Of a stretch of 64,000 nt of DNA, positions 13,247 to 23,658 are shown one piece after another. A program made the position numbers and the translations under genes. Where the stretch lies: positions 7,812 through 71,811 of the forward strand of contig JAUWHP010000033.1 in assembly GCA_030605765.1 (NCBI GenBank), read 5' to 3'. The notes beneath the pieces are model-generated. The model made no database searches, was not told the DNA's origin, and saw nothing but the letters and a program-made list of their open reading frames with translations. Source of the stretch: Dehalococcoidia bacterium. Lineage in GTDB: Bacteria > Chloroflexota > Dehalococcoidia > GIF9 > AB-539-J10. How positions within the stretch are numbered: position 1 is the first letter of the stretch; the number at the start of each line of letters is the position of its first letter.

Positions 13247-13360
13247 ATATAGTGTAAGAGCTGATCTAAGAAAGGGCTGCCAGAAAATATAAAAGGTCGC
13301 TGTAACTGATGCTAGTGGTCTTGTGGTGGGATGTTAAACGGCTTAGTTGAAATTTAATAA

Positions 13361-14749
13361 TTGGACAAATCTAAGGTCAAGCGTATTTTTGTTTGTCAGC
13401 AATGCGGCAAGGAAAGTGCCAAATGGTTAGGGCGATGCCCCAATTGCCAGGCATGGAATAGCTTTGTAGAGACCGCGGTTGGCCTATCGCATATCCCCTC
13501 TGATTGGTCTTGCTCTAGGGAAAACAAACCTCAAGAGCTTTCTCAAGTGGATATAGGCTCCTTTTCTCGCTTTCACCTCGGCTTTGCCGAACTGAATCGG
13601 GTTCTCGGAGGTGGTTTAGTTCCGGGTTCTTTGGTGCTTATCGGAGGCGAACCGGGAATAGGTAAATCCACACTTTTGCTGCAGGCTTTAGCCATGGTAG
13701 CAGAGAGTAACGGACCTGTCGCTTATGTTTCTGGAGAGGAATCTATTAATCAAGTTAAGCTCAGGGCTGAGCGCTTAAACGTGAGAGGCAAGGGGCTTTT
13801 CATCTTATCCGAAACTAGCTTATCTGCACTCTTAGGGCATTTGGAAGCACTTCTACCTCACTTGGTGGCTATAGATTCAATTCAAAGCGTGTATCTGGAA
13901 GATGCGTCTGGTGTACCCGGCAGTATTGCTCAAGTACGTGAATGCACACTGAGGTTGATGTATTGGGCAAAGCAAAATAATGTGCCTGTATTTATCATAG
14001 GGCATGTGACTAAAGACGGTGCTATTGCTGGCCCTGGAGCGTTGGAGCACATCGTTGATGTAGTGCTTTATTTCGAAGGTGAACAATTCAGTAACTATAG
14101 GATGCTGCGGAGCGTAAAAAATCGCTTTGGCTCCACTAACGAAGTGGGCGTCTTTGAGATGGGCCGTAGTGGGCTGATAGAAATAGAGAACCCGTCTCAA
14201 GTTTTCTTATCTAATTATAAGGATGCTGCTATTGGCTCTGTCGTGGTGCCGGTGCTTGAGGGGACACGCCCCTTGTTGGTGGAAATTCAAGCCTTGATTA
14301 CCCCTGCCAGTTTTGGCCCACCCCGGCGCATTGCTAATGGCATCGATTTTAATCGTCTTCTGTTGATTAGTGCCGTGCTTAGTAAACGCGCTGGGCTGAA
14401 GGTTTCTAACCAGGATATCATGGTCAACGTTACTGGTGGACTCAAGGTCAATGAACCGGCAATTGACTTAGGAATTGCCTTGGCTATAGCCTCTAGCTTT
14501 CGTGATAGTAAACCGCTCTCTGGCTTGGTTGCGCTGGGAGAAGTAGGCCTGAACGGGGAACTCAGATCTGTAGCTCAGGCTGAGCGACGGATTGCTGAGG
14601 CTATCAGATTGGGCTTTAAATCTTGCCTTATGCCTAGATCTTCATCTGAGCTTTCTCTTGGCAAGGGGGACATTGAATTAATCGAAGCTAGCTCTGTAGC
14701 TGATGCCCTGCATTTAGGTTTGAGACGGGAGCCGAAAGGAAAGCAATAA
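13361..14749 (+). CDS. radA: DNA repair protein RadA
   Basis: N-terminal C4 zinc finger (CQQCG...CPNCQ), RecA-like Walker A GEPGIGKSTLLLQ, KNRFG motif and a Lon-protease-like C-terminal domain. The start codon is TTG. Confidence 0.93.
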   Translation: MDKSKVKRIFVCQQCGKESAKWLGRCPNCQAWNSFVETAVGLSHIPSDWSCSRENKPQELSQVDIGSFSRFHLGFAELNRVLGGGLVPGSLVLIGGEPGIGKSTLLLQALAMVAESNGPVAYVSGEESINQVKLRAERLNVRGKGLFILSETSLSALLGHLEALLPHLVAIDSIQSVYLEDASGVPGSIAQVRECTLRLMYWAKQNNVPVFIIGHVTKDGAIAGPGALEHIVDVVLYFEGEQFSNYRMLRSVKNRFGSTNEVGVFEMGRSGLIEIENPSQVFLSNYKDAAIGSVVVPVLEGTRPLLVEIQALITPASFGPPRRIANGIDFNRLLLISAVLSKRAGLKVSNQDIMVNVTGGLKVNEPAIDLGIALAIASSFRDSKPLSGLVALGEVGLNGELRSVAQAERRIAEAIRLGFKSCLMPRSSSELSLGKGDIELIEASSVADALHLGLRREPKGKQ

Positions 14750-15961
14750 ATGGGCGAGACCTCTGGAGTAGGGGTTATTATAGTTGCTGCTGGCAAGGCT
14801 GAGCGGATGGGTGCTACGGACAAAATCTTTGCTCCCTTGGCGGGCAAACCTGTATTAGCTTGGCCGGTGGATACATGCCAGCGATGTAGCTTAGTTAAGC
14901 AGATAATCATTACGCTGAATAATGGCAATCTAAAGCCAGGCCAGAAGTTAAAAGAAGAAAGAGCTTGGACCAAGGCTACTATGTGTCTTGGTGGTGCACA
15001 GCGACAAGACTCGGTAAAGGAAGGGCTACTCAAGCTGAAGGACTGTGATCGAGTCATAATTCACGATGGAGCTCGCCCTTTCCTGACTTCGGATTTAATT
15101 CAAAATGGCTTGGAGGCAGCCAAAGAAACTGGTGCTGCTGTAGCTGCCGTGCCGGTTAAGGATACCATCAAATTTACCGATGATACGGGGTTAATTACGG
15201 AAACGCTTCAGCGTAATAGGTTGTGGGCAGTACAAACTCCACAAATATTCAGCTTTGATGTAATAAACCAGGCTTACCAGGAACTCACAACCGAGATTAC
15301 TGATGACGCCGCTGCTGTGGAGCGCTCAGGACACAAAGTGAAGATTTATCCTGGCGATTACAATAATATAAAGATAACCACACCTGAGGATTTGGCGCTA
15401 GCGGAGATTATTGCACGGCTTAATCCTGAACAAAGCAAGTGCCCTCCTTGTTACCCTGAGCGGCACGAAGGAGCTAAGGAAGAACTGAGAGTTGGCATTG
15501 GCTATGATAGCCATCCTTTGGTTCCGGGGCGCAAGCTGGTTTTGGGTGGTGTGGATATTCCTTATGATAAGGGCTTATTAGGGCGGAGTGATGCTGATGT
15601 GGCCACTCACGCTATTATAGATGCTTTGTGTGGTGCCGCTGATCTTGGTGATATTGGCACTCGGTTCCCTCCGGAAGATCCGAGGCACGAAGGCATCTCC
15701 AGTTTGGATTTGCTGAATGAAATTCGTAAGCTACTTGAAGGAAAAAACTTTAAGGTAACTAATATCGATACTACTATCATTGCCCAACGTCCCAAACTTT
15801 CGCCTTTTGTTCCTGAGATGAGAAAACAAATCAGCCAAGCTTTAGGTATTAAAACGACACAGGTGACGATTAAAGCTACTACCACCGATGGTTTAGGTTT
15901 TATCGGTAGAGAAGAGGGAATAGCTGCTCAATCTGTAGCTTTAGTTACCACCATTTTATAA
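14750..15961 (+). CDS. ispDF: bifunctional 2-C-methyl-D-erythritol 4-phosphate cytidylyltransferase / 2-C-methyl-D-erythritol 2,4-cyclodiphosphate synthase
   Basis: N-terminal IspD (VIIVAAGKAERMG) fused to C-terminal IspF (RVGIGYDSHPL...GRSDADV). Confidence 0.92.
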   Translation: MGETSGVGVIIVAAGKAERMGATDKIFAPLAGKPVLAWPVDTCQRCSLVKQIIITLNNGNLKPGQKLKEERAWTKATMCLGGAQRQDSVKEGLLKLKDCDRVIIHDGARPFLTSDLIQNGLEAAKETGAAVAAVPVKDTIKFTDDTGLITETLQRNRLWAVQTPQIFSFDVINQAYQELTTEITDDAAAVERSGHKVKIYPGDYNNIKITTPEDLALAEIIARLNPEQSKCPPCYPERHEGAKEELRVGIGYDSHPLVPGRKLVLGGVDIPYDKGLLGRSDADVATHAIIDALCGAADLGDIGTRFPPEDPRHEGISSLDLLNEIRKLLEGKNFKVTNIDTTIIAQRPKLSPFVPEMRKQISQALGIKTTQVTIKATTTDGLGFIGREEGIAAQSVALVTTIL

Positions 15962-16212
15962 CTTGGTTTACCTTCTTCCCAGTAGACTATAAATTTGACT
16001 GCTCTCTGTTGTGTCAAATACTCTTCACTTTCCCGGCGCAGCTTTTTGAAATCCGTTGATTCTAAAAAGGCCTTGAGAAGCTCGATATTCATTGCTGCTT
16101 CTTTGTCTTCTTGCGCACTTTCCATATACTTGTTTACCAGGCTCCAGAATTCTTCTCTGGCTACAGTTTCTATGCAATGGGAAAGGCTGGGCAAAAGGTC
16201 TATACAACCCAT
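15928..16212 (-). CDS. hypothetical small acidic protein (convergent with ispDF, overlapping its 3' end)
   Basis: 94-aa ORF with no recognisable domain and helical/acidic composition. The real start may be an internal Met. Confidence 0.3.
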   Translation of the reverse strand: MGCIDLLPSLSHCIETVAREEFWSLVNKYMESAQEDKEAAMNIELLKAFLESTDFKKLRRESEEYLTQQRAVKFIVYWEEGKPSYKMVVTKATD

Positions 16213-16251
16213 ATTCTAATTTGTATCACTAACTAACAATATTTTCAAAAT

Positions 16252-16280
16252 TTGACAGCATTAATGATGGGTGTTAGAAT
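16252..16280 (+). promoter_or_regulatory. near-consensus sigma70-type promoter (TTGACA, 17-nt spacer, TAGAAT) for the DUF134 operon
   Basis: TTGACAgcattaatgatgggtgtTAGAAT read directly from the sequence, about 50 nt upstream of the DUF134 gene start. Confidence 0.55.
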
Positions 16281-16329
16281 CATTATTGACATATGTTCAT
16301 AATGACTAATGGAGATGAGGTGATTTCTG

Positions 16330-16794
16330 TTGGCTAGGCCGGTGAAATTGCGGTGTGTTGCCCAATTACCTAGAGCGGGTTTTTTTAGGCCGGTAGGGCC
16401 TCCAGCAAGTGCTTTACAAAAGGTTTGCCTTTCTGTGGAAGAAATCGAATCTATTCGGCTTAAGGATTTTGAGGGGTTGGAGCAGGAGGAATGTGCTCAA
16501 GAGATGCGCATCTCCAGGCCAACTTTCCACCGTATATTAGGGTCAGCCAGAAAGAAATTGGCCGATGCCTTGGTTAATGGCAAAGCGATTCAAGTTGAAG
16601 GTGGTAACTTTGGATTAGCTCAAAGTTATTTTAGGTGTAACAATGATGGACATGAATGGAATGTACCTTTTGAGGCTCTGGCACGTGGATTTCCATTATC
16701 TTGCCCTATATGCTCCAGTGCGAACATCCAGCCTTTGCCTTCATTTGGCTTTGGGAAAAGATATGGCAGGCGATTCCGTGGAGGAAGAGTTTAA
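16330..16794 (+). CDS. DUF134 (UPF0251) family putative DNA-binding protein with C-terminal Cys-containing extension
   Basis: N-terminus MARPVKLRCVAQLPRAGFFRPVGPP...VEEIESIRLKDFEGLEQEECAQEMRISRPTFHRILGSARKKLADALVNGKAI matches the DUF134 signature (sigma-70 region-4-like HTH). The C-terminal extension has C-x4-H ... CPIC. Confidence 0.8.
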   Translation: MARPVKLRCVAQLPRAGFFRPVGPPASALQKVCLSVEEIESIRLKDFEGLEQEECAQEMRISRPTFHRILGSARKKLADALVNGKAIQVEGGNFGLAQSYFRCNNDGHEWNVPFEALARGFPLSCPICSSANIQPLPSFGFGKRYGRRFRGGRV

Positions 16795-16837
16795 CAATGG
16801 AATACAAGAAGAATATAAGAAAAGGAGGTGAGTAAGA

Positions 16838-17077
16838 ATGCCATTTGGAGATGGAACAGGGCCAGTAGGGTTGGGTCCAATGACGGGCAGAGCAGCGGGT
16901 TTTTGTGCCGGTTTCGGCAGGCCTGGGTTTGCCAATCCCATTCCTGGAAGTTGGTTTGGCTTTGGCAGTGGGGCACCTTATGGGCATTACTATGCTGGGC
17001 GTTATAGCCGTTTCTATCCTTGGCGAGGTCGGGGCAGACGGTGGAGATGGTGGGCGCCCTATCGGTATTCCTGGTAA
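16838..17077 (+). CDS. Gly-rich small protein, DUF5320-like N-terminal module (MPFGDGTGPVGLGPMTGRAAGFC...); C-terminal part apparently out of frame
   Basis: Strong RBS aaggaggtg, conserved N-terminal motif shared with 17298 and 18548. The C-terminus (RGRGRRWRWWAPYRYSW) looks like frame-shifted sequence. Confidence 0.6.
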   Translation: MPFGDGTGPVGLGPMTGRAAGFCAGFGRPGFANPIPGSWFGFGSGAPYGHYYAGRYSRFYPWRGRGRRWRWWAPYRYSW

Positions 17078-17103
17078 GGAAGAAATTTAGGGGGGGTGAT
17101 ATA

Positions 17104-17280
17104 ATGTGGCCTTGGTTTGGACGGAATCCTTGGGGATGGCCTGCATATAGAATGCCTTATGGTTACCCGTGGGGAGCCATACCTAAAGAGGAAGAGATAA
17201 GAATGCTTAAAGAGCAAGAGAGATGGCTGACGAACGAACTGAATGATGTAAAGAAGAGACTTGAAGAAATTCGCAAATAA
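17104..17280 (+). CDS. small Trp/Pro-rich protein with C-terminal coiled-coil (DUF5320-like C-terminal module)
   Basis: 58 aa: MWPWFGRNPWGWPAYRMPYGYPWGAIPKEEEIRMLKEQERWLTNELNDVKKRLEEIRK. A G7 tract plus ATG sits at 17090-17106. The coiled-coil motif recurs in the 17298 and 17705 products. Confidence 0.5.
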   Translation: MWPWFGRNPWGWPAYRMPYGYPWGAIPKEEEIRMLKEQERWLTNELNDVKKRLEEIRK

Positions 17281-17297
17281 AATTAAGGAGGTGAATT

Positions 17298-17690
17298 ATG
17301 CCAGGATTTGATGGAACAGGACCAGGTGGAATGGGTCCGATGACAGGAGGTGGAAGGGGTTTTTGTAGCCCCTGGGGCTCAGGCGGTTGGCACGGTTTAG
17401 GGAGAGGAGGCGGTTTTGGATTTAGGGGAAGCTCTCCTCCGTGGCCTTTTGTTGGTATAGGTAGGGGGGGATTGCCCAGAGGTGCGTATCCGGGAGCTGC
17501 TGGGATGCCTGTATCACCAGCCTACCCCTCTTATAGTAGCCCTTCGACTATGCCTTATGGGAGTAGCCCTTACGCTGCACAAATGACTCGGGAGCAGGAA
17601 ATGGATTTTCTGAAGAGCCAAACTGAAGCAATGAAGGGGCAATTGGAGCAAATTGGTGCTAGAATGAAAGAACTGGAAACAGAAGAATAA
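17298..17690 (+). CDS. DUF5320-like Gly-rich protein (full length: N-terminal GDGTGP motif plus C-terminal coiled-coil)
   Basis: RBS aaggaggtg. Sequence MPGFDGTGPGGMGPMTGGGRGFC ... REQEMDFLKSQTEAMKGQLEQIGARMKELE. Confidence 0.75.
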   Translation: MPGFDGTGPGGMGPMTGGGRGFCSPWGSGGWHGLGRGGGFGFRGSSPPWPFVGIGRGGLPRGAYPGAAGMPVSPAYPSYSSPSTMPYGSSPYAAQMTREQEMDFLKSQTEAMKGQLEQIGARMKELETEE

Positions 17691-17704
17691 GAAGGAGGAG
17701 AATC

Positions 17705-18283
17705 ATGAAGATCGGAGTGTCAGCAATAGCTCCTAGTTTAGATGCTGAAGTGGACCCCCGGTTTGGAAGATGCCAATACTTTGTCATTGTTGATCCGCAA
17801 ACCATGGAATTTGAAGCTTTACAGAATTCTAGTGCCATGGCTGCAGGTGGAGCTGGCATTAGCACGGCTCAGATGATTGCCAATAAAGGGGTACAAGTAA
17901 TACTTACCGGCAATTGTGGGCCTAATGCTTATCAGACATTATCCGCTGCTGGACTTCAGGTGATCACTGGCGCTGCCGGCAGGATAAGGGATGTTGTGCA
18001 GGCTTATAAGGATGGTAAATTTCAACCAACTGCTCAGGCTAATGTAGGTAGCCATTATGGCATGGGCAGTGGCTCTGGTATGGGTATGGGCCGCGGCATG
18101 GGCATGGGCATGGGTAGAGGAATGGGGCGTGGTATGGGGATGGCATCTATGACAGAGCCAGTACCTCAAGCCGTGGGCCCAGAACAAGAGACAGAGATGC
18201 TTAAAAGCCAGGCACAGGTATTAGGGCAGCAATTAAATGAAATACAACGGCGTATTGAGGAGTTAAGTAAAAAGAAGGAGTAA
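17705..18283 (+). CDS. NifX/NafY-like dinitrogenase FeMo-cofactor-binding family protein (Nitro_FeMo-Co, PF02579-like) with Met/Gly-repeat and coiled-coil C-terminal tail
   Basis: MKIGVSA...VDPRFGRCQYFVIVD...GAGISTAQMIANKGVQVILTGNCGPNAYQTL is a Nitro_FeMo-Co fold signature. The tail has GMGSGSGMGMGRGMGMGMGRGMGRGMGM followed by ETEMLKSQAQVLGQQLNEIQRRIEEL. Confidence 0.8.
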   Translation: MKIGVSAIAPSLDAEVDPRFGRCQYFVIVDPQTMEFEALQNSSAMAAGGAGISTAQMIANKGVQVILTGNCGPNAYQTLSAAGLQVITGAAGRIRDVVQAYKDGKFQPTAQANVGSHYGMGSGSGMGMGRGMGMGMGRGMGRGMGMASMTEPVPQAVGPEQETEMLKSQAQVLGQQLNEIQRRIEELSKKKE

Positions 18284-18292
18284 GGAGGTGCT

Positions 18293-18505
18293 ATGCCCAT
18301 CTATGAATATCAATGCACTCAGTGCGGACAAAAATTCGAGGTTCGCCAAACGATTGGTGAGGGAGGTTCTAAGCTAAGCTGCCCTAAATGCCATGCCTCA
18401 AATCCTGAAAGGCTCTTTTCTTCGTTCTTCAGCCCAGCCTCAATCACAACTGAGTCTTCAGGGACAAGCTGTCCTACTTGCAACTCTGGAATTTGTGGGC
18501 TGTAG
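18293..18505 (+). CDS. FmdB-family zinc-ribbon protein
   Basis: MPIYEYQCTQCGQKFEV...LSCPKCHAS is the hallmark FmdB CxxC...CxxC. An extra C-terminal CPTCNSGIC is present. Confidence 0.8.
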   Translation: MPIYEYQCTQCGQKFEVRQTIGEGGSKLSCPKCHASNPERLFSSFFSPASITTESSGTSCPTCNSGICGL

Positions 18506-18547
18506 CCTAGAAGCTAAAGAGAGCCGATTTCTATTGGAGGTGTTATT

Positions 18548-18772
18548 ATGTCCAGAGGAGATGGCACAGGCCCTTTGGGTCAGGGACGGGGGACAGGAAA
18601 AGGGATGGGCCGTGGTATGGGAAGTGGGAGAATGGGAGGGAACCGCCCTGGAGCGGGTCCTAGCGGAAACTGCGTTTGCCCCAGTTGTGGGACAAAAGTC
18701 TCCCACCAGGTGGGCGTTCCCTGTTACAACCTGAGTTGTCCTAAGTGCGGGACGAAAATGATTAGAGAATAG
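18548..18772 (+). CDS. Gly-rich (GDGTGP motif) small protein fused to a C-terminal zinc ribbon
   Basis: MSRGDGTGPLGQGRGTGKGMGRGMG... then CVCPSCGTK...CPKCGTK. Confidence 0.65.
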   Translation: MSRGDGTGPLGQGRGTGKGMGRGMGSGRMGGNRPGAGPSGNCVCPSCGTKVSHQVGVPCYNLSCPKCGTKMIRE

Positions 18773-18773
18773 A

Positions 18774-19634
18774 ATGATAATCTCCGTTGCCAGCGGTAAA
18801 GGAGGCACAGGGAAAACGCTGGTAGCTGTAAATCTGGCTCTTACTTTGAGTGATGTGTACAGAGTACAGCTATTAGATTGTGATGTAGAGGAGCCAGATG
18901 CGCATATTTTTCTTCATTTAGCTACTAATCGAAGCGAAGCGGTAGTGATTCCTGTGCCTAGAATAGATGAGACGAAGTGTACCTATTGTGGCAGGTGTGC
19001 TGAAGTCTGTGTCTATAATGCTATCGCTGTGCTTAAGGGAAAGGTGCTCGTTTTCCCTGAGTTATGCCATGGCTGTGGAGCGTGTTCTTACTTATGCCCC
19101 GAGTCAGCTATTTCCGAGGAGGGGAGAGAAATAGGAGTGGTGGAAACAGGGGATTCAGGAAATATGGAGTTTATTCAGGGACGACTTGCCATTGGAGAGC
19201 CAATGGCTCCACCTATAATCAGGGAGGTAAAGAAGCACATTGATCGTGTAAGAGAGGTCATTATCGATGTTCCTCCAGGAACTTCTTGCCCCGTAGTAGA
19301 GGCAGTTAAGAGTAGTGACTTCTGCCTCTTGGTGACTGAGCCTACTCCTTTTGGGTTGAATGACCTTTCGCTAGCAGTAGAGCTGGTAAGAAAATTGCAA
19401 ATCCCATGCGGGGTGATAATTAACCGAAGTGGCGTAGGAGATGAAAAAGTTGAGCAATACTGTCAGGAGCAGGGGATACCCATCTTGCTGAAGATTCCTT
19501 TAGATAGAAATATTGCCACACTCTATTCGAAAGGAATCCCCTTGATAGCAGGTATGCCTGAGTGGCGTGGGGTCTTTGTTACTCTTTTTCAAAATATAAA
19601 GCAGATAGACTCAGCTAGTCGGGTGGTGAAATGA
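18774..19634 (+). CDS. MinD/ParA-superfamily P-loop ATPase with inserted 2x[4Fe-4S] ferredoxin domain
   Basis: Deviant Walker A SGKGGTGKT, ferredoxin insert CTYCGRCAEVC...CHGCGACSYLCP, then the continued ATPase fold (DVPPGTSCP). Confidence 0.85.
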   Translation: MIISVASGKGGTGKTLVAVNLALTLSDVYRVQLLDCDVEEPDAHIFLHLATNRSEAVVIPVPRIDETKCTYCGRCAEVCVYNAIAVLKGKVLVFPELCHGCGACSYLCPESAISEEGREIGVVETGDSGNMEFIQGRLAIGEPMAPPIIREVKKHIDRVREVIIDVPPGTSCPVVEAVKSSDFCLLVTEPTPFGLNDLSLAVELVRKLQIPCGVIINRSGVGDEKVEQYCQEQGIPILLKIPLDRNIATLYSKGIPLIAGMPEWRGVFVTLFQNIKQIDSASRVVK

Positions 19635-19759
19635 CGGCTTGGCAGCAAATTGCCATAGATGGTGAAACACACGTTAAGAGAATAACGGATCAGTATGAGG
19701 AGTTTGGTTTTCAAGTTCGCCTTGAAGAAGTTAAGCCTGCGGAAGCAGGAGGTTGGTAA
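19631..19759 (+). CDS. small ORF (42 aa) translationally coupled between the two MinD-ferredoxin ATPase genes
   Basis: ATGA start/stop overlap with the upstream gene. Sequence MTAWQQIAIDGETHVKRITDQYEEFGFQVRLEEVKPAEAGGW. It is too short to appear in the ORF track and there is no homology evidence. Confidence 0.3.
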   Translation: MTAWQQIAIDGETHVKRITDQYEEFGFQVRLEEVKPAEAGGW

Positions 19760-19765
19760 ATACAA

Positions 19766-20626
19766 ATGAAAGAGGTTGTGGTTCTGAGCGGCAAGGGAGG
19801 AACCGGGAAGACAAGCTTGGTAGCTTCGTTTGCCGCTTTAGCTCAAAGTAAAGTATTGGTTGACTGCGATGTTGATGCCGCAGACCTCTACCTTCTTCTC
19901 AAACCACAAGTTACGGAGGAAAACGAATTTTGGAGTGGCCAGATTGCCTTCATTGATAAAAAAGTATGCACTGAGTGTGGACTTTGCCAGGAAATGTGCC
20001 GTTTTGGAGCTATAAAGGATTACTTTGTTGATAAGATTTCTTGTGAGGGCTGCGGGCTATGTTCTCAAATCTGCCCCGTTAATGCTATTATTATGCAATC
20101 TTGTATGGCTGGACACTGGTTTATTTCTGAGACAAGCTATGGCACTCTCATTCATGCTAAATTGGGAATTACTGAGGAAAGCTCCGGCAAGTTAGTAACC
20201 TTGGTTCGGAATAGCGCCAGGCTTGTAGCGGAGGAGGGAAAATTCGATTATATCATCAGCGATGGTCCTCCAGGTATTGGCTGCCCGGTTATCGCTTCTC
20301 TATCCGGAGCTAATTTGGCACTCCTGGTAATCGAGCCTACATTATCAGGAATCCATGACCTCGAGCGTGTAATTGGTGTCTGCCGCCACTTTGGCATTCC
20401 CATTCTGGTTTGCATAAACAAATATGACATAAACGAAGAAAACTCTTATCGCATTGAAGATTACTGTCATAACAACGATATAGAAGTGGCAGTAAAAATT
20501 CCTTTTGACAATGTAGTGACTGAGGCAATTGTTGAGGGCTTACCTGTAGTGGAGTACTCCGACGGCAAAGTAACTCAGCAGGTGAGGGAGCTATGGAAAA
20601 TTGTTTCAGTAAAGTTAAATAATTAG
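19766..20626 (+). CDS. MinD/ParA-superfamily P-loop ATPase with inserted 2x[4Fe-4S] ferredoxin domain (paralog)
   Basis: SGKGGTGKT, ferredoxin insert CTECGLCQEMC...CEGCGLCSQICP, DGPPGIGCP. Confidence 0.85.
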   Translation: MKEVVVLSGKGGTGKTSLVASFAALAQSKVLVDCDVDAADLYLLLKPQVTEENEFWSGQIAFIDKKVCTECGLCQEMCRFGAIKDYFVDKISCEGCGLCSQICPVNAIIMQSCMAGHWFISETSYGTLIHAKLGITEESSGKLVTLVRNSARLVAEEGKFDYIISDGPPGIGCPVIASLSGANLALLVIEPTLSGIHDLERVIGVCRHFGIPILVCINKYDINEENSYRIEDYCHNNDIEVAVKIPFDNVVTEAIVEGLPVVEYSDGKVTQQVRELWKIVSVKLNN

Positions 20627-20636
20627 GAGGGAAGAG

Positions 20637-20879
20637 ATGCCAATTTATGAATATAGGTGTTTGAATTGTGGGAGGATATCAGAAATCCTCCTTCGCAATC
20701 TGGACAACGAAAACATTGAGTGCCCAATATGCGGCAGCGAGAATCTGGAAAAGCTTTTGTCTGCTTCCTATGCTATAAGGATGAATGATTCTATGCCTGC
20801 TGGAACTTGCTGCGGCAGAACAGAGCGCTGCGAGACACCTCCTTGCTCTGTGAATGGCACCTGTAGGAGGAATGACTGA
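20637..20879 (+). CDS. FmdB-family zinc-ribbon protein (paralog)
   Basis: MPIYEYRCLNCGRISEI...IECPICGSE, with a Cys-rich C-terminal tail. Confidence 0.8.
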   Translation: MPIYEYRCLNCGRISEILLRNLDNENIECPICGSENLEKLLSASYAIRMNDSMPAGTCCGRTERCETPPCSVNGTCRRND

Positions 20880-20881
20880 AA

Positions 20882-21220
20882 ATGAGATACGCGGTACCTG
20901 TAGTAGATGGCAAAGTGGCTGAGCACTTTGGCCATTGTAGCCATTTTGCCTTGTTTGATATCGATGAAACGAGCAAGGTGATTGTGAAGAAGGAGGTAAT
21001 AGCTTCGCCAGGACATCAACCTGGATTTCTTCCAGAGTGGCTGGCTGCGGAAGGAGTTTCCGTTGTTATAGCTAATGGCATGGGATCCAGGGCACAAAGC
21101 CTTTTTAGAGAGAGCCGTATTGAAGTTGTTACTGGCACGCTAGGAGATGAGCCACAGGAAGCCGTTCTAGCTTACCTGAGAGGTACATTGGCTACTGGCG
21201 ATAATTTGTGTGACCATTAA
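20882..21220 (+). CDS. NifX/NafY-like (Nitro_FeMo-Co family) protein (paralog, no tail)
   Basis: MRYAVPVVDGKVAEHFGHCSHFALFDIDE...VIANGMGSRAQSLF. Confidence 0.8.
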   Translation: MRYAVPVVDGKVAEHFGHCSHFALFDIDETSKVIVKKEVIASPGHQPGFLPEWLAAEGVSVVIANGMGSRAQSLFRESRIEVVTGTLGDEPQEAVLAYLRGTLATGDNLCDH

Positions 21221-21246
21221 GTACATGAAGATAGGAGGCAGATGTT

Positions 21247-22248
21247 ATGGCAACTGAAGATTCGGTGATTGAAGCGTTAAATAAAGTGCTTGTCCCTGGA
21301 GCAATGCGTAGCTTGGTGCAGATGAATTTGTTGCGAAACGTTGAAGTTAAAGATGGAGAGGCGAAAATCACTTTGGCTTCGACTGCTATCCCTGCCCAAT
21401 CTCAGGATTGGTTAAGGGCTAAAGTGACCACAGCAGTTCGCGAACTGCCTGAAGTGAAAGGAGTTGTTGTTGACCTTGTAGAAGCCAAACCTAAGGAACT
21501 TAACCAAATTCAGAATATAATAGCTGTGATGAGTGGAAAAGGTGGAGTGGGCAAATCTTTGGTAGCTGGCTTACTGGCTGTTGCTTTTGCTCGAGATGGT
21601 AAGGAGGTTGGTATACTTGATGCTGACATTACCGGCCCTAGCATCCCTAAAATGTTTGGTTTAAATATTCACCCTAGTGGCAGCGAGACAGGTATCTTGC
21701 CGATATTATCGAGGTCTGGAATTGAAGTTATGTCTATGAACCTTCTATTGCCTAGCGAAGATGAAGCAGTTATTTGGAGAGGCCCTCTTATGTCAAAAGC
21801 CATTACGCAGTTCTGGGAGGAGGTGCTTTGGGGCAACCTTGATTATCTCGTGGTTGATTTGCCACCTGGTACTGCGGATGCCGCATTGACAGTATTGCAG
21901 ACTTTACCGCTTGCCGGTGTAATCGACGTTTTTACTCCTCAGGAGTTGACGGGAATGATAGTGAAAAAGGCAGTGAAAATGGCAAGGAAATTAAACGTTC
22001 GTGTTCTGGGGGTAATAGAGAACATGAGCTATCTGTTGTTACCCGAAACGGGCAAAAAACTGGAGGTTTTTGGCCGGAGCAAGGGAGAGGAAATGGCTAA
22101 GGCCTGTGAAGCACCACTGTTAGGGCAATTGCCTATTGACCCTCAATTGGCTAAATTGTGTGATGAAGGAAATATTGAGAGATACAATTCGGATGCCTTG
22201 TCACAAATCTTTGCCAATGTAGGTGCTGCTCTAAATGAGAGAAAGTGA
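21247..22248 (+). CDS. Mrp/NBP35/ApbC-family P-loop ATPase with N-terminal DUF59/MIP18-like domain; lacks the canonical CxxC cluster-bridging motif
   Basis: DUF59-like N-terminus (LLRNVEVKDGEAKITL), Walker A SGKGGVGKS, and the conserved ENMS segment present as VIENMSYLLLPETGKK with no cysteines. Confidence 0.8.
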   Translation: MATEDSVIEALNKVLVPGAMRSLVQMNLLRNVEVKDGEAKITLASTAIPAQSQDWLRAKVTTAVRELPEVKGVVVDLVEAKPKELNQIQNIIAVMSGKGGVGKSLVAGLLAVAFARDGKEVGILDADITGPSIPKMFGLNIHPSGSETGILPILSRSGIEVMSMNLLLPSEDEAVIWRGPLMSKAITQFWEEVLWGNLDYLVVDLPPGTADAALTVLQTLPLAGVIDVFTPQELTGMIVKKAVKMARKLNVRVLGVIENMSYLLLPETGKKLEVFGRSKGEEMAKACEAPLLGQLPIDPQLAKLCDEGNIERYNSDALSQIFANVGAALNERK

Positions 22249-22266
22249 AATCCTAAGTCAGGAGGA

Positions 22267-22728
22267 ATGACAGTGGAAGTTGGAAATTCCTTTAAAGAGT
22301 TGGAGGAATCTGTTATGCAGGATATGCTAAAAACCTATTCTGAGGAAGCAATCGACCATTTTCTTAACCCGAGAAATCTGGGGCAGATTGAATCTCCAGA
22401 TGGGTTTGGAAGGGTAACCGGCCCTTGTGGGGATACCATGGAGATATATCTCAGGGTAAATGGAGGCAGGATTACAAATGCTACCTTCCTGACTGGTGGC
22501 TGTGGCCCCAGTATCGCCTCCGGCAGCATGGCCACTGAGCTAATTAAAGGAAAGAGCATTGTTGAGGCTCAGAACATAAGCCAAGATAATATTCTAAATG
22601 CCTTAGGAGGACTTCCTGAGGAGAGCCAGCACTGTGCCCTTCTGGCGGCAAATGCACTTAAAGAAACAGTTAGAGACTATTTAGCCTTCAAAAACGAACC
22701 TTGGAAAAGGCTTTATAAAGTCCACTAG
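22267..22728 (+). CDS. IscU/NifU-N-like Fe-S cluster scaffold protein
   Basis: Three conserved Cys in their expected contexts: GPCGDTM, GGCGPS, QHCALLA. An alternative start lies at the ATG near 22309. Confidence 0.8.
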   Translation: MTVEVGNSFKELEESVMQDMLKTYSEEAIDHFLNPRNLGQIESPDGFGRVTGPCGDTMEIYLRVNGGRITNATFLTGGCGPSIASGSMATELIKGKSIVEAQNISQDNILNALGGLPEESQHCALLAANALKETVRDYLAFKNEPWKRLYKVH

Positions 22729-22871
22729 AACCTGAAGCGGATAGAATGAATTTGCCACCTGTGGTATAGCCCTGCTTTGAGAGTGTGATGGTAGTTTGAA
22801 CCTTATGCCTGAAGGTAAGCCGCTGGATTTGTAGTAGATTTTGCGGCGAAGGCAAAACTTCTAGCCACCTT

Positions 22872-23141
22872 ATGTTAAAAGTAAATGTGAATCTTTGTGT
22901 GGGTTGTGCTTTATGCGCCCAGGTATGCCCTCAAGGGGCTATCAGCCTCATTGGGGGCAAAGCAGAGGTAGATACCAGTAAATGTGACTCTTGCTATTGG
23001 TGTCTTGAAGCGTGCCCTCGAGGCGCAATTTCTGAGTTGATTATAGTCTCCCCGGAGGAACTAAGAGTTACTGTTTCTACGCTAAAGCGACAAACAGATG
23101 ATATAATAAAGAGGATTAACAGGCTGGCTACCAAGGTTTAG
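22872..23141 (+). CDS. 2[4Fe-4S] ferredoxin
   Basis: CVGCALCAQVCP and CDSCYWCLEACP clusters. Confidence 0.75.
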   Translation: MLKVNVNLCVGCALCAQVCPQGAISLIGGKAEVDTSKCDSCYWCLEACPRGAISELIIVSPEELRVTVSTLKRQTDDIIKRINRLATKV

Positions 23142-23151
23142 GGTTATCGTC

Positions 23152-23607
23152 GTGAAAGAACAGCGGATTTTAGAATTGAAGCCCATAGGGGTAATCCATT
23201 CGCCTTACCCTGATAGGGGAGAAGCACCACGTCAGGGCTGCGGGCGAGATGAAATCTGCCGGGTAGAAGTGTTCAAAGAATTTGAAGAGGGCTTGAAAGA
23301 CATAGATGGTTTTTCCCACGTTAGCTTGATATATTGGTTTCATAAATCTGGAGGATATCGTCTGCTCATTACAACCCCGTGGGATACAAAGCTGCATGGG
23401 CTTTTTACTACGAGGTCGCCAAACAGACCCTGCCCATTGGGGTTATGCTTGGTGGAGTTGGTTGCCCGGGAAGGGAATATTCTCAGTGTAAAGGGGTTGG
23501 ATGCTATAGACGGCACTCCGCTTTTGGATATCAAGCCATACATTCCCTCTATAGATGAGAAAACTAACGGCCAAGTTGGGTGGCTTAAAGACAGATTCAA
23601 AGGTTAG
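23152..23607 (+). CDS. tsaA: tRNA (N6-threonylcarbamoyladenosine(37)-N6)-methyltransferase TrmO / TsaA (YaeB family)
   Basis: 151-aa ORF with GTG start. It contains the YaeB-like beta-barrel core (IGVIHSPY...RSPNRPCPLG...LDGTPLLDIKPY). Confidence 0.75.
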   Translation: MKEQRILELKPIGVIHSPYPDRGEAPRQGCGRDEICRVEVFKEFEEGLKDIDGFSHVSLIYWFHKSGGYRLLITTPWDTKLHGLFTTRSPNRPCPLGLCLVELVAREGNILSVKGLDAIDGTPLLDIKPYIPSIDEKTNGQVGWLKDRFKG

Positions 23608-23658
23608 GGGAGAGGGCGAAAGGGAGGATAATGAATGCCAATAACCTATGTTGGCATC

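What the first reader, a model, noticed from the sequence alone, without database searches (positions are those of the whole stretch)
16838..18772. Family of four Gly/Met-rich small proteins sharing an N-terminal GDGTGPxGxGP(M)TG motif, and a recurring C-terminal coiled-coil motif
Read directly from the translations, the N-terminal motif M-P/S-x-GDGTGP-x-G-x-G-P/x-x-TG-x-G occurs in the ORFs at 16838, 17298 and 18548, with a conserved Cys about 22-24 residues in. A C-terminal heptad motif occurs three times: EEEIRMLKEQERWLTNELNDVKKRLEEI (17104), EQEMDFLKSQTEAMKGQLEQIGARMKELE (17298) and ETEMLKSQAQVLGQQLNEIQRRIEEL (NifX-like tail, 17705). So two sequence modules are shuffled among at least five genes of the locus. 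The Gly-rich module is joined to a coiled coil (17298), to a zinc ribbon (18548), or stands alone (16838). The coiled coil is joined to a W/P-rich segment (17104) or to a NifX-like domain (17705). Modular tails of this kind are typical of proteins that dock onto a shared partner. The Gly/Met/Arg-rich low-complexity stretches are unusual for bacterial cytoplasmic proteins.
Basis: seen in the sequence. Interest (0 to 1): 0.8.

Follow-up and report, generated by a model that had tools for sequence, protein, structure and literature searches.

The report
DUF5320 proteins in an iron-sulfur operon
Five neighbouring small genes of an uncultured Dehalococcoidia bacterium encode floppy glycine/arginine-rich proteins of a catalogued but never studied family (DUF5320); they sit inside an iron-sulfur-cluster handling operon that many anaerobes share, and probably join each other and a cluster-binding protein through a common helical tail.

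Summary
HMMs built only from other genomes find exactly three N-terminal motifs (16838, 17298, 18548) and three C-terminal helices (17104, 17298, 17705) in the 64-kb window. They score 17-71 bits; residue-shuffled copies reach at most 12.

Both "modules" are the two ends of one Pfam family, DUF5320 (PF17253). It has no described function and at least 2,736 clusters at 50% identity.

The genes are real: each has a Shine-Dalgarno site, dN/dS is 0.01-0.2, and the gene order recurs in other Dehalococcoidia.

AlphaFold2 models residues 1-97 of the 130-aa protein as disordered, followed by one helix with a clean a/d heptad pattern.

In 80 loci from more than 12 anaerobic phyla, DUF5320 genes lie beside NifX-like genes (62 loci) and MinD-like ATPases carrying 4Fe-4S motifs (58 loci). 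The helix is also fused to NifX-like and ferredoxin domains. The window locus resembles the Desulfovibrio orange-protein (ORP) cluster, with a split MrpORP.

The 16838 product matches the composition of the thioferrate-binding tail of Pyrococcus IssA.

Best reading, inferred only: these are disordered cationic subunits of an ORP/IssA-type metal-sulfur system, assembled through the shared coiled coil.

They are new members of a known, uncharacterised family. Interest is moderate.

The parts
16252..16280 (+). Sigma-70-like promoter (TTGACA-17-TAGAAT with TG) upstream of the first gene of the operon-like array.
   Evidence: 11 of 12 consensus matches. This is a consensus match only. The total number of promoter-like sites in the region is no higher than in shuffled sequence.
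16330..16794 (+). DUF134 (PF02001) predicted HTH DNA-binding protein, with a Cys-rich C-terminal part and an RG-rich tail. Candidate regulator of the locus.
   Evidence: E 8.5e-25. Found in 38 of 80 DUF5320 loci from other genomes. Tail sequence.
16838..17077 (+). Class A DUF5320 protein, 79 aa. It has the N motif (16838-16915) and then an acid-free Arg/Gly/Trp/Tyr-rich tail ending in Trp. It has no helix. pI is 10.9.
   Evidence: Pfam E 2.7e-12, profile 1-61. N-motif HMM 46.3 bits. Composition. Class A is conserved in Dehalococcoidia, Anaerolineae and Deltaproteobacteria, and 16 of 29 members end in W. dN/dS is 0.01-0.21.
17104..17280 (+). Class D protein, 58 aa. A Trp/Pro/Tyr-rich segment is followed by the coiled-coil helix (17158-17277).
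   Evidence: Pfam E 3.7e-6, 28.5 bits, profile 43-99. Helix HMM 44.2 bits. Orthologues directly follow class A genes in L007, L008, L009, L023, L027, L028 and L034. It has its own SD site.
17298..17690 (+). Class B, full-length DUF5320, 130 aa. It has the N motif (17298-17378), a disordered Gly/Pro/aromatic region, and the C-terminal helix (17562-17687).
   Evidence: Pfam E 8.1e-13, profile 1-99. AlphaFold2 gives pLDDT of about 40-45 for residues 1-97 and a helix at 98-129 with pLDDT 70-83. 2687 homologues were found.
17705..18283 (+). NifX-like (Nitro_FeMo-Co, PF02579) domain, then a (GMGRGM)n linker encoded by the hexanucleotide repeat at 18076-18143, then the C-terminal helix (18152-18277). 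192 aa.
   Evidence: Pfam PF02579 E 6.8e-25 and PF17253 E 5.2e-11, profile 30-99. The fusion is very common in Chloroflexota, with lengths of 174-205 aa. Tandem repeat.
18293..18505 (+). FmdB-family zinc-ribbon protein (Zn_ribbon_8 / TIGR02605), 70 aa.
   Evidence: E 9.9e-17 and 1.9e-18.
18548..18772 (+). Class C protein, 74 aa. It has a variant N motif (18548-18625), a Gly/Arg/Met linker, and a Cys6-His zinc-ribbon-like domain (CxCxxC..H..C..CxxC).
   Evidence: N-motif HMM 16.7 bits, E 3.8e-4. Pfam 19.3 bits, below threshold. There are 632 homologous clusters, about 40% of the 120 listed pre-annotated PF17253. C42, C44, C47, H53, C64 and C67 are invariant and C59 nearly so. AlphaFold2 models residues 40-74 as folded, pLDDT about 80. 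Only generic zinc-ribbon or rubredoxin-knuckle matches were found.
18774..19634 (+). MinD/ParA-type P-loop ATPase with two inserted [4Fe-4S] ferredoxin motifs (Orp3/Orp4-like).
   Evidence: Pfam ParA/CbiA plus two Fer4 matches. Homologues occur in 58 of 80 DUF5320 loci.
19766..20626 (+). Second MinD/ParA-type ATPase with two [4Fe-4S] motifs (Orp3/Orp4-like).
20637..20879 (+). Second FmdB-family zinc-ribbon protein, 80 aa.
20882..21220 (+). Stand-alone NifX-like (Di-Nase) protein that matches the C-terminal domain of MrpORP.
   Evidence: NCBIfam NF041136, positions 265-365, E 9.1e-34.
21247..22248 (+). Mrp/NBP35 Fe-S carrier ATPase that matches the N-terminal domain of MrpORP.
   Evidence: NF041136, positions 1-239, E 3.2e-92. 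Pfam ParA (NUBPL) E 4e-89.
22267..22728 (+). NifU/IscU-type Fe-S scaffold.
   Evidence: TIGR03419 E 1.2e-39.

Best explanation
The five genes are paralogous members of DUF5320 (PF17253), an anaerobe-wide family of small proteins.

Shown by the tools:
- Each protein is mostly intrinsically disordered and rich in Gly, Arg and aromatic residues. Acidic residues are almost absent outside the helix.
- A full-length member has an N-terminal block, MPxxDGTGPxGxGPMTGxGxGxC, at the very start of the protein.
- It also has a C-terminal amphipathic helix of about 30 residues with a 3-4-3-4 hydrophobic repeat, which indicates a coiled coil.
- The genes are subunit-like components of an operon of the orange-protein (ORP) type. 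That operon encodes NifX-like cluster-binding proteins, two MinD-like ATPases with [4Fe-4S] motifs, Mrp/NBP35 and NifU.

Inferred mechanism:
- The shared helix bundles the DUF5320 proteins with the NifX-like protein that carries the same helix. In other genomes it would also bundle ferredoxins that carry it.
- The globular metal-sulfur binding domain would then be surrounded in trans by several cationic disordered arms.
[quoted passage not shown] Alternatively they would hold it for hand-over.
- Oligomerisation would bring the single conserved Cys23 of several N motifs together, as a possible bridging ligand or a contact point for the ATPases.
For: Family membership:
- Pfam hits lie above the gathering score for four of the five products.

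Positional conservation:
- Module HMMs built from other genomes score 17-71 bits. Shuffled modules reach at most 12 bits.
- In nine N-motif proteins of A2 (the window's 17298 and 16838 products plus close relatives), M1, P2, D5, G6, T7, G8, P9, G11, G13, P14, T16, G17, G21 and C23 are invariant; the consensus of 110 N modules from the 80 loci shows the same positions conserved across phyla.

The genes are real:
- Every ORF is preceded by an SD site.
- dN/dS is 0.01-0.21, against about 0.10-0.12 for the flanking MinD-like and DUF134 genes.

Disorder plus helix:
- AlphaFold2 gives pLDDT of about 40-45 for residues 1-97 and a helix at 98-129.
- The only weak PDB sequence matches are to coiled coils.
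- The consensus ELDFLKEQAEALKQQLEEIEKRIEEL places hydrophobic residues at a/d positions.

Genomic linkage:
- At least 398 confirmed loci were found, and 80 were kept, from more than 12 phyla.
- NifX-like genes occur in 62 of the 80 loci and MinD+Fer4 ATPases in 58. Seventy-five loci have one of these or DUF134.
- Among 29 loci with full 8-kb flanks, 23 have both NifX-like and MinD+Fer4 genes. In 21 of 26 loci the nearest such gene is within 300 bp.

Fusions of the helix:
- The helix is fused to NifX-like domains of two types and to ferredoxin domains. L076 carries NifX, linker, helix and ferredoxin in one chain.

ORP identity of the locus:
- 21247 matches MrpORP positions 1-239 (E 3e-92) and 20882 matches positions 265-365 (E 9e-34).
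- The ORP complex contains Orp3/Orp4 (MinD-like with Fe-S), Orp8 (NifX-like) and MrpORP (PMC6345978).

IssA analogy:
- The IssA tail of 70 aa has 15 Gly, 11 Pro, 7 cationic and 14 aromatic residues, 1 Cys, and pI 10.7. It is proposed to wrap anionic thioferrate (PMC5524996).
- The last 70 aa of the 16838 product have 15 Gly, 7 Pro, 10 cationic, 0 acidic and 19 aromatic residues, 1 Cys, and pI 11.2.
Against: - No interaction, metal binding or oligomeric state was tested. The mechanism rests on gene neighbourhood, fusions and composition.
- The P. furiosus IssA sequence could not be obtained, so there is no sequence comparison of its tail with DUF5320.
- The NifX fusion (17705) fails the published IssA and IssX screening criteria. 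Its pI is 7.75, and Gly is only 5% of its last 40 residues.
- Its linker is Gly/Met-rich with only 3 cationic residues in 40 and almost no aromatics. It is therefore chemically unlike the IssA tail.
- The full-length protein (17298) is near neutral overall, with pI 6.6.
- Helices in one locus show no sign of co-evolution.
- Class A proteins lack the helix, so they cannot join by that route.
- A few loci with full flanks (L020, L039, L068) have neither a NifX-like nor a MinD-like gene within 8 kb.
Confidence: 0.5

Rival explanations
1. DUF5320 proteins are adaptor or activator partners of the two MinD/ParA-type ATPases, working like McdB with McdA or ParB with ParA. The conserved N-terminal peptide would contact and stimulate the ATPase. 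The disordered region and coiled coil would give multivalency or condensation. The C-terminal Trp of class A would bind the cargo.
For: - MinD-like ATPases with Fe-S motifs are adjacent in 58 of 80 loci, usually as a pair.
- The motif sits at the extreme N terminus: 113 of 118 proteins begin with M/V/L followed by P.
- The N-terminal disordered region plus coiled coil matches the McdB architecture (PMC10554743).
- Class A proteins end in Trp in 16 of 29 cases, including the window protein. This recalls the invariant C-terminal Trp of McdB that mediates carboxysome binding (PMC11321042).
- MrpORP is polar in Desulfovibrio, and Orp3/Orp4 carry a MinD-like amphipathic helix (PMC6345978).
Against: - There is no sequence similarity to McdB, ParB or MinE.
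- The terminal Trp and the coiled coil occur in different classes: 0 of 77 helix-bearing proteins end in W.
- The N motif is Gly-rich with one Cys and few charges, unlike the Lys/Arg-rich ATPase-stimulating peptides.
- The helix is fused to NifX and ferredoxin domains, which points to cofactor chemistry rather than positioning.
- No cargo is known.
Confidence: 0.2
2. They are RGG/RG-type nucleic-acid-binding proteins (RNA or G-quadruplex binders or chaperones). Their link to the Fe-S genes would then reflect only co-regulation.
For: - RG/RGG repeats and aromatic residues are typical of such binders.
- The only paper in the library that mentions DUF5320 lists a Hadesarchaea DUF5320 protein and a DUF134 protein among hits to an RG-rich G4-binding motif (PMC7565180).
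- The DUF134 protein here also ends in an RG-rich tail.
Against: - The conserved elements are the N motif, Cys23 and the helix, not the RG repeats, which vary freely in number and sequence.
- The same helix is covalently fused to NifX-like and ferredoxin domains.
- Linkage to metal-sulfur genes holds across more than 12 phyla.
Confidence: 0.08
3. They are precursor peptides of a ribosomally made, post-translationally modified product, or substrates of a modifying enzyme. The conserved N motif would be the recognition sequence.
For: The genes are small and occur as several paralogous copies in a row. They encode a conserved N-terminal block, a Cys, and a variable Gly-rich remainder.
Against: - No radical-SAM enzyme, cyclodehydratase, lanthipeptide synthetase, protease or exporter genes are conserved beside them.
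- The proteins are 58-190 aa and have a conserved C-terminal helix.
- The N motif is fused to a folded zinc ribbon in class C.
Confidence: 0.03
4. The similarity is only low-complexity composition, or the small ORFs are not genes.
For: None beyond the Gly-rich composition.
Against: - Real modules score 17-71 bits and shuffles reach at most 12 bits.
- dN/dS is 0.01-0.21.
- SD sites precede each ORF.
- The ORFs are conserved in hundreds of genomes.
Confidence: 0.01

Closest known systems
Pfam PF17253, DUF5320 (family of unknown function)
   Same: Four of the five products score above the family's gathering threshold. NCBI already names relatives 'DUF5320 domain-containing protein' or 'DUF5320 family protein'.
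   Different: Pfam treats the family as one domain. Here and in related genomes it resolves into separable pieces and conserved classes:
- N motif with a cationic Trp-ended tail
- Trp-rich segment with the helix
- full-length form
- N motif with a Cys6-His zinc ribbon
- NifX-like domain with the helix
- ferredoxin domain with the helix

Some of these fall below the Pfam threshold: 18548 scores 19.3 bits, and the second type of NifX fusion scores 17.9 bits. No function has been published.
Orange-protein (ORP) complex and orp operons of Desulfovibrio vulgaris (Orp3, Orp4, Orp5, Orp8, Orp9/MrpORP)
   Same: The locus encodes two MinD-like ATPases, each with two [4Fe-4S] ferredoxin motifs, as in Orp3/Orp4. 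It encodes single-domain NifX-like proteins, as in Orp8. It encodes both domains of MrpORP (NF041136, E 3e-92 and 9e-34). It also encodes small Cys-rich proteins (PMC6345978, PMC8359166). The cluster is restricted to anaerobes.
   Different: - MrpORP is split into two genes here, in permuted order.
- The adjacent regulator is DUF134, not the sigma-54 activator OrpR.
- The ORP papers I could read do not describe DUF5320 proteins.
- I could not check whether Orp7 (DVU2107) or Orp5 correspond to any gene here.
- The ORP function is itself unresolved; it is described as 'putatively cell division'.
IssA, the iron-sulfur storage protein of Pyrococcus furiosus, and the uncharacterised 'IssX' clade
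   Same: IssA has a NifX-like (IPR003731) domain followed by a disordered Gly-rich tail, as does 17705. The IssA tail is rich in Gly, Arg, Trp/Tyr and Pro, has one Cys and pI 10.7. The 16838 product reproduces this chemistry almost number for number (PMC5524996).
   Different: - The IssA-like chemistry is here on a separate polypeptide (16838), not on the NifX protein.
- The NifX protein's own linker is Gly/Met-rich and ends in a coiled coil that is not described for IssA.
- 17705 fails the published pI and terminal-Gly screening criteria.
- No sequence comparison with IssA was possible.
McdB, the adaptor of the ParA-type ATPase McdA in carboxysome positioning
   Same: Both are small proteins with an N-terminal disordered region and a coiled coil, encoded beside a ParA/MinD-family ATPase. 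Class A DUF5320 proteins have a conserved C-terminal Trp, as McdB does (PMC11321042, PMC10554743).
   Different: There is no sequence similarity. The Trp and the coiled coil are on different DUF5320 classes. The ATPases here carry Fe-S motifs. No positioned cargo is known.

Membership tests
Pfam PF17253 (DUF5320) | Whole-protein score at or above the curated gathering score of 27 bits. | tested here: met
   16838 scores 48.1 bits, 17104 (scanned as ORF 17020-17280) 28.5 bits, 17298 49.8 bits, and 17705 44.0 bits.
Pfam PF17253 (DUF5320) | The same threshold applied to the 74-aa N-motif plus zinc-ribbon protein (18548). | tested here: not met
   19.3 bits, E 0.0026, profile positions 1-40 only. 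Close homologues with the consensus MPRGDGTGP..GQGPGTGRG do carry a precomputed PF17253 hit. The window copy has S2, R14 and K18 in place of P2, P14 and R18. It is therefore a related architecture that shares the N block, not a full member.
Pfam PF17253 (DUF5320) | N-terminal block at residue 1 with a conserved Cys at about position 23, and a C-terminal amphipathic helix. | tested here: met
   17298 has both features. 16838 has only the N block with Cys23. 17104 and 17705 have only the helix.
ORP (orange protein) gene cluster / complex | Two paralogous MinD-like ATPases, each with two [4Fe-4S] ferredoxin motifs (Orp3/Orp4). | tested here: met
   18774-19634 and 19766-20626 each match CbiA/ParA and have two Fer4 stretches. 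The definition is taken from PMC6345978.
ORP (orange protein) gene cluster / complex | Single-domain NifX-like (Di-Nase) protein (Orp8) that binds the Mo-Cu sulfide cluster. | tested here: inconclusive
   The domain is present (PF02579 in 17705 and 20882). Cluster binding cannot be tested in silico.
ORP (orange protein) gene cluster / complex | MrpORP: Mrp/NBP35 domain fused to a Di-Nase domain (NCBIfam NF041136, cutoff 450 bits). | tested here: inconclusive
   Both domains are present but on two adjacent genes in reversed order. They score 309.6 bits (positions 1-239) and 117.3 bits (positions 265-365). Each is below the equivalog cutoff.
ORP (orange protein) gene cluster / complex | Control by the sigma-54 activator OrpR encoded between divergent orp operons. 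| tested here: not met
   No AAA+ enhancer-binding protein is encoded at 12000-24000. The array is co-directional behind a DUF134 gene and a sigma-70-like promoter.
ORP (orange protein) gene cluster / complex | Physical multiprotein complex. | not testable with these tools
   This needs pull-down or native mass spectrometry.
IssA / IssX (Vaccaro et al. 2017 screening criteria) | IPR003731 NifX-like globular domain. | tested here: met
   17705: PF02579 E 6.8e-25, residues 13-102.
IssA / IssX (Vaccaro et al. 2017 screening criteria) | Protein pI of at least 9 (IssA) or at least 8 (IssX). | tested here: not met
   The 17705 product has pI 7.75.
IssA / IssX (Vaccaro et al. 2017 screening criteria) | At least 20% Gly (IssA) or at least 10% Gly (IssX) in the last 40 residues. 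| tested here: not met
   The last 40 residues have 2 Gly (5%) because the helix occupies the C terminus. The Gly-rich stretch is internal: residues 113-152 have 15 Gly in 40.
IssA / IssX (Vaccaro et al. 2017 screening criteria) | Fewer than 5 Cys (IssA). | tested here: met
   The 17705 product has 2 Cys.
IssA / IssX (Vaccaro et al. 2017 screening criteria) | [quoted passage not shown] | not testable with these tools
   This needs anoxic purification or reconstitution with XAS and TEM.
McdB-like adaptors of ParA/MinD ATPases | Disordered N terminus, coiled coil and invariant C-terminal Trp in one protein encoded beside its ATPase. | tested here: inconclusive
   The adjacent ATPases, the disordered region and the coiled coil are present. 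The terminal Trp occurs only in class A (16 of 29), which lacks the coiled coil. None of 77 helix-bearing proteins has it. No sequence homology was sought beyond the Pfam and NCBIfam scans.

The most novel reading that the evidence does not exclude
DUF5320 proteins are the missing matrix components of a widespread, anaerobe-specific iron-sulfur storage or trafficking body. Free-standing IssA-tail-like polypeptides and NifX-like and ferredoxin domains would co-assemble through a common coiled coil into a cationic disordered scaffold, possibly a condensate, that holds polyanionic Fe-S material. The Fe-S-bearing MinD-like ATPases of the ORP cluster would load, unload or position this body. This would give the long-enigmatic ORP complex a function and extend IssA-type storage from Thermococcales to more than a dozen bacterial phyla.
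Probability: 0.15. Interest if true: 0.8.

Novelty: new member of a known kind. Interest (0 to 1): 0.45.

Why it matters
The function of the ORP-type cluster (NifX-like proteins plus MinD-like Fe-S ATPases) is an open question in anaerobe physiology. The cluster is expressed only at very low redox potential and is widespread in anaerobic Bacteria, with DUF5320 relatives also seen in Archaea.

This analysis shows that DUF5320 proteins are regular, tightly linked members of that cluster in more than 12 phyla. Their helix is a portable tail shared with NifX-like and ferredoxin domains. One class also copies the chemistry of the IssA thioferrate-binding tail.

Together these results give concrete, cheap experiments on a family of at least 2,700 sequence clusters with no assigned function. 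If the storage-scaffold reading holds, it would link two separate lines of work, ORP and IssA, and add a bacterial example of a functional disordered or condensate-forming protein in metal homeostasis. If it does not hold, the finding remains a correct but ordinary rediscovery of a catalogued DUF.

Tried and rejected
- IssA comparison: I could not obtain the P. furiosus IssA (Q8TZG9) sequence. Only a compositional comparison was possible.

- Co-evolution of helices: identity within a locus between the NifX-fused and DUF5320 helices is 0.374, against 0.361 between loci, and 324 of 2000 permutations reached the observed value. This is uninformative.

- Sixth module: the helical tail of the 89-aa ferredoxin at 22872-23141 looked like another module, but the helix HMM does not match it even at E<=10. 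Rejected.

- Split pseudogene idea: 16838 plus 17104 looked like a recently broken DUF5320 gene. This was rejected. Both halves are conserved as separate genes with their own SD sites in several Dehalococcoidia, and both are under purifying selection.

- Solved structures: profile searches of PDB sequences gave only weak coiled-coil or zinc-ribbon hits at E>=0.03. Foldseek with the 18548 model gave only generic zinc-ribbon or rubredoxin knuckles at E>0.8.

- NCBIfam has no model for any of the DUF5320 products.

- Literature: searches for DUF5320, PF17253, IPR035205 and the DGTGP motif gave nothing functional. The founding ORP paper (PMC3133258) is not held, so the identity of Orp7 and Orp5 relative to these genes remains unknown.

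- Complex prediction: prediction of helix-helix or N-motif-ATPase complexes was not possible, because only single window sequences can be submitted.

Full report
**1. What is in the window**

Between 16330 and 23607 on the + strand lies a tight, co-directional gene array. Intergenic gaps range from a 4-bp overlap to about 140 bp; those among the small genes at 16794-18774 are 1-43 bp. Most genes, including all the small ones, have a Shine-Dalgarno site. The genes, in order, are:

- DUF134 (16330-16794)
- a 79-aa protein (16838-17077)
- a 58-aa protein (17104-17280)
- a 130-aa protein (17298-17690)
- a 192-aa NifX-like protein (17705-18283)
- an FmdB zinc ribbon (18293-18505)
- a 74-aa protein (18548-18772)
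- two MinD-like ATPases, each with two 4Fe-4S motifs (18774-19634 and 19766-20626)
- a second FmdB zinc ribbon (20637-20879)
- a stand-alone NifX-like protein (20882-21220)
- Mrp/NBP35 (21247-22248)
- NifU (22267-22728)
- a small ferredoxin (22872-23141)
- TrmO (23152-23607)

A strong sigma-70-like site lies at 16252-16280. The same locus occurs in six metagenome contigs. Close homologues are named as Dehalococcoidia.

**2. Check of the observation**

I built one HMM for the N motif and one for the helix, using only sequences from 80 loci of other genomes. I then scanned every stop-to-stop segment of the window in six frames.

The scan found exactly three N motifs and three helices, and nothing else at E<=10:

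| Module | Coordinates | Score (bits) |
|---|---|---|
| N motif | 16838-16915 | 46.3 |
| N motif | 17298-17378 | 45.4 |
| N motif | 18548-18625 | 16.7 |
| Helix | 17158-17277 | 44.2 |
| Helix | 17562-17687 | 71.4 |
| Helix | 18152-18277 | 60.5 |

One thousand shuffles of each module reached at most 7-12 bits. The similarity is therefore positional.

Two details need correcting. Only three proteins carry the N motif. The Cys at residue 23 is absent from the 18548 product, and in other genomes it is present in 27/29 and 76/77 proteins of the two non-ribbon classes but in 0/12 of the ribbon class.

**3. The small ORFs are genes**

Against orthologues in other Dehalococcoidia, dN/dS is 0.01-0.21 for the small ORFs. 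It is about 0.10-0.12 for the flanking MinD-like and DUF134 genes. Each class is conserved in many genomes.

**4. What the modules are**

Both are parts of one Pfam family, DUF5320 (PF17253, profile length 99). The products map onto the profile as follows:

- 16838 covers positions 1-61.
- 17104 covers positions 43-99.
- 17298 covers positions 1-99.
- 17705 covers positions 30-99, after a Nitro_FeMo-Co (NifX-like) domain.
- 18548 covers positions 1-40, below threshold.

A profile search of 1.84 billion representatives found 2,736 clusters at E<=1e-3. Nearly all are 60-200 aa, with the motif at residue 1. NCBIfam has no model for these proteins. The paper library holds nothing functional on the family. 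The single mention lists a Hadesarchaea DUF5320 protein as a hit to an RG-rich G-quadruplex-binding motif.

**5. Anatomy**

With a 24-sequence alignment, AlphaFold2 models the 130-aa protein as disordered over residues 1-97 (pLDDT about 40-45). A single helix follows at residues 98-129 (pLDDT 70-83).

The consensus of 140 helices is ..EQELDFLKEQAEALKQQLEEIEKRIEELE... Hydrophobic residues are spaced 3-4-3-4, which is a short coiled coil. The only weak PDB hits are coiled coils.

The N block consensus is MPGFDGTGPRGMGPMTGRGRGYC. M1, P2, D5, G6, T7, G8, P9, G11, G13, P14, T16, G17, G21 and C23 are invariant in the nine-sequence alignment A2, which holds the window's two proteins and close relatives. 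The consensus of 110 N modules from other genomes shows the same positions highly conserved across phyla.

The 74-aa protein is disordered to residue 38. It then forms a zinc-ribbon-like fold (pLDDT about 80), with C42, C44, C47, H53, C64 and C67 invariant and C59 nearly so. Only generic zinc-ribbon or rubredoxin knuckles resemble it.

**6. Classes seen across genomes**

- **Class A:** N motif plus an acid-poor Arg/Gly/aromatic tail. Median pI is 11.5, and 16 of 29 members end in Trp. The 16838 product belongs here.
- **Class B:** full-length form (17298).
- **Class C:** N-motif variant plus the Cys6-His ribbon (18548). There are 632 clusters, found in more than 10 phyla.
- **Class D:** Trp-rich segment plus helix (17104). 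Seen in Dehalococcoidia only, always directly after a class A gene.
- **Class E:** NifX-like domain, (GMGRGM)n linker and helix (17705).
- **Class F:** a second type of NifX-like domain, an acidic linker and the helix (Anaerolineae).
- **Class G:** the helix joined to 2x[4Fe-4S] ferredoxin domains.
- L076 carries NifX, linker, helix and ferredoxin in one chain.
- Many Dehalococcoidia paralogues lack the N motif but keep a middle block (FGFRGSSPPWPYVGxGRGGLPRC) and the helix.

So 16838 plus 17104 is not a freshly broken gene. It is a conserved pair.

**7. Genomic context elsewhere**

The 80 kept come from these groups:

- Dehalococcoidia and Anaerolineae
- Bipolaricaulota, Atribacterota and Omnitrophota
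- KSB1, Planctomycetia and Kiritimatiellia
- Actinomycetota and Bacillota (Pelotomaculum)
- Desulfobacterales, Syntrophia relatives and Leptospirales
- Endomicrobiales and Armatimonadia
- one archaeon

Within 8 kb, NifX-like genes occur in 62 of the 80 loci, MinD+Fer4 ATPases in 58, and DUF134 in 38. At least one of these occurs in 75.

Of the 29 loci with full flanks, 23 have both NifX-like and MinD+Fer4 genes. In 21 of 26 loci the nearest such gene is within 300 bp. Gene maps are collinear across phyla.

**8. Identity of the surrounding system**

The 21247 product matches NCBIfam MrpORP (NF041136) positions 1-239 at E 3e-92. The 20882 product matches positions 265-365 at E 9e-34. MrpORP is therefore split here and its parts are in permuted order.

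Together with the two MinD-like Fe-S ATPases and the NifX-like proteins, this is the gene set of the Desulfovibrio orange-protein (ORP) complex: Orp3/4, Orp8 and Orp9 (PMC6345978). That complex is expressed only at very low redox potential, and its function is still unknown (PMC8359166). The regulator differs here: it is DUF134 rather than the sigma-54 activator OrpR.

**9. Link to IssA**

IssA of P. furiosus has a NifX-like domain and a 70-residue disordered tail. The tail has 15 Gly, 11 Pro, 7 cationic and 14 aromatic residues, one Cys, and pI 10.7. It is proposed to wrap anionic thioferrate (PMC5524996).

The last 70 residues of the 16838 product have 15 Gly, 7 Pro, 10 cationic, 0 acidic and 19 aromatic residues, one Cys, and pI 11.2.

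The NifX fusion (17705) itself does not meet the published IssA or IssX screening criteria. Its pI is 7.75 and its last 40 residues are 5% Gly. Its linker is Gly/Met-rich rather than Arg/aromatic-rich. No sequence comparison with IssA could be made.

**10. Explanation**

Shown by the tools:
- The products belong to DUF5320.
- The genes are real.
- The proteins have a disordered region followed by a coiled-coil helix.
- They are tightly linked to, and sometimes fused with, NifX-like, ferredoxin and MinD-like Fe-S proteins of an ORP-type cluster.

Inferred:
- The common helix assembles these proteins into hetero-oligomers.
- The cationic disordered arms bind or shield anionic Fe-S species.
- Cys23 of the N motif, brought together by oligomerisation, may ligate metal or contact the ATPases.

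The main rival is a McdB-like adaptor or activator of the MinD-like ATPases. It is supported by the N-terminal position of the motif and by the terminal Trp of class A. It is weakened because the Trp and the coiled coil are on different classes. The RGG nucleic-acid-binding, RiPP-precursor and artefact readings are less likely, for the reasons given in their entries.

**11. Verdict**

But the pair of modules is the already catalogued DUF5320 domain, and the genes are ordinary members of conserved classes. The value lies in the context now documented: DUF5320 is a regular component of ORP-like clusters, and class A has IssA-tail chemistry. That context turns an unstudied DUF into a testable hypothesis.

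Noticed in passing
window 18076-18143 (inside 17705-18283); L001, L004, L006; P0121-P0125: The Gly-Met-Arg linker of the NifX fusion is encoded by an imperfect ATGGGC hexanucleotide/18-nt tandem repeat. Near-identical strains (97-100% DNA identity) differ by in-frame 6- and 18-nt indels there, giving proteins of 174-192 aa. Across Chloroflexota the length runs from 174 to 205 aa. The linker length appears to vary freely by slippage.
   Followed up: partly
window 20882-21220 and 21247-22248: MrpORP (NF041136) is encoded as two separate adjacent genes in permuted order, with the Di-Nase domain first (E 9e-34) and the Mrp/NBP35 domain second (E 3e-92). In Desulfovibrio the two domains form one fused protein.
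   Followed up: partly
window 17075 (C terminus of the 16838 product); class A ORFs in L007, L016, L023, L034, L038, L039, L046, L049, L054, L062, L064, L067, L068, L072, L081, L082: Helix-less class A DUF5320 proteins end with Trp as the very last residue in 16 of 29 cases, against 0 of 77 helix-bearing proteins. Often the ending is ...GRGRGRW. The function is unknown. It recalls the invariant C-terminal Trp of McdB.
   Followed up: partly
window 16330-16794: Besides its HTH, the DUF134 protein has a Cys-rich C-terminal part (FRCNNDGHEW...CPICSS, a weak treble-clef hit) and an RG-rich tail (GKRYGRRFRGGRV). It may be a metal- or redox-sensing regulator of the operon. A DUF134 protein was also flagged as an RG-motif hit in Hadesarchaea.
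   Followed up: no
window 19631-19759: A 42-aa acidic ORF sits between the two ATPase genes and overlaps the stop of the first. Strain L001 has a 68-aa call at the same place. Similar ORFs were found in only 2 of 80 other loci. It is unclear whether this is a gene.
   Followed up: partly
window 18548-18772 and alignment A4: The 74-aa class has seven conserved potential ligands (C42, C44, C47, H53, C59, C64, C67), more than a Cys4 zinc ribbon needs. It might bind an Fe-S cluster or a second metal, like the small [2Fe-2S] protein reported from the ORP operon of D. alaskensis (cited in PMC6345978). Their relationship was not checked.
   Followed up: no
L076 8473-10296 and 10205-11068; L085 9020-10846: In Desulfobacterales and Kiritimatiellia the two MinD+Fer4 ATPases are fused into one protein of about 607 aa. 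L076 also has NifX, GM linker, helix and 2x[4Fe-4S] ferredoxin in a single chain.
   Followed up: partly
P0437, P0444, P0388, P0406, P0471: Some predicted proteins carry two N motifs in tandem. The first is followed by a 'GYCxL...GFAGxxGxP' block, as in L064 7659-7961. These may be true fusions of a class A-like and a class B gene, or merged gene calls.
   Followed up: no
L060 6277-7149: In a Bacillota MAG, an ORF has an N-motif-like stretch followed by about 190 residues with weak winged-HTH/MarR-like matches. It may be an assembly or gene-call artefact.
   Followed up: partly
window 22872-23141: An 89-aa 2x[4Fe-4S] ferredoxin has a C-terminal helical tail (..EELRVTVSTLKRQTDDIIKRINRLATKV). 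It looks like the DUF5320 helix but is not matched by the helix HMM. It may be a diverged or independent coiled-coil tail.
   Followed up: partly
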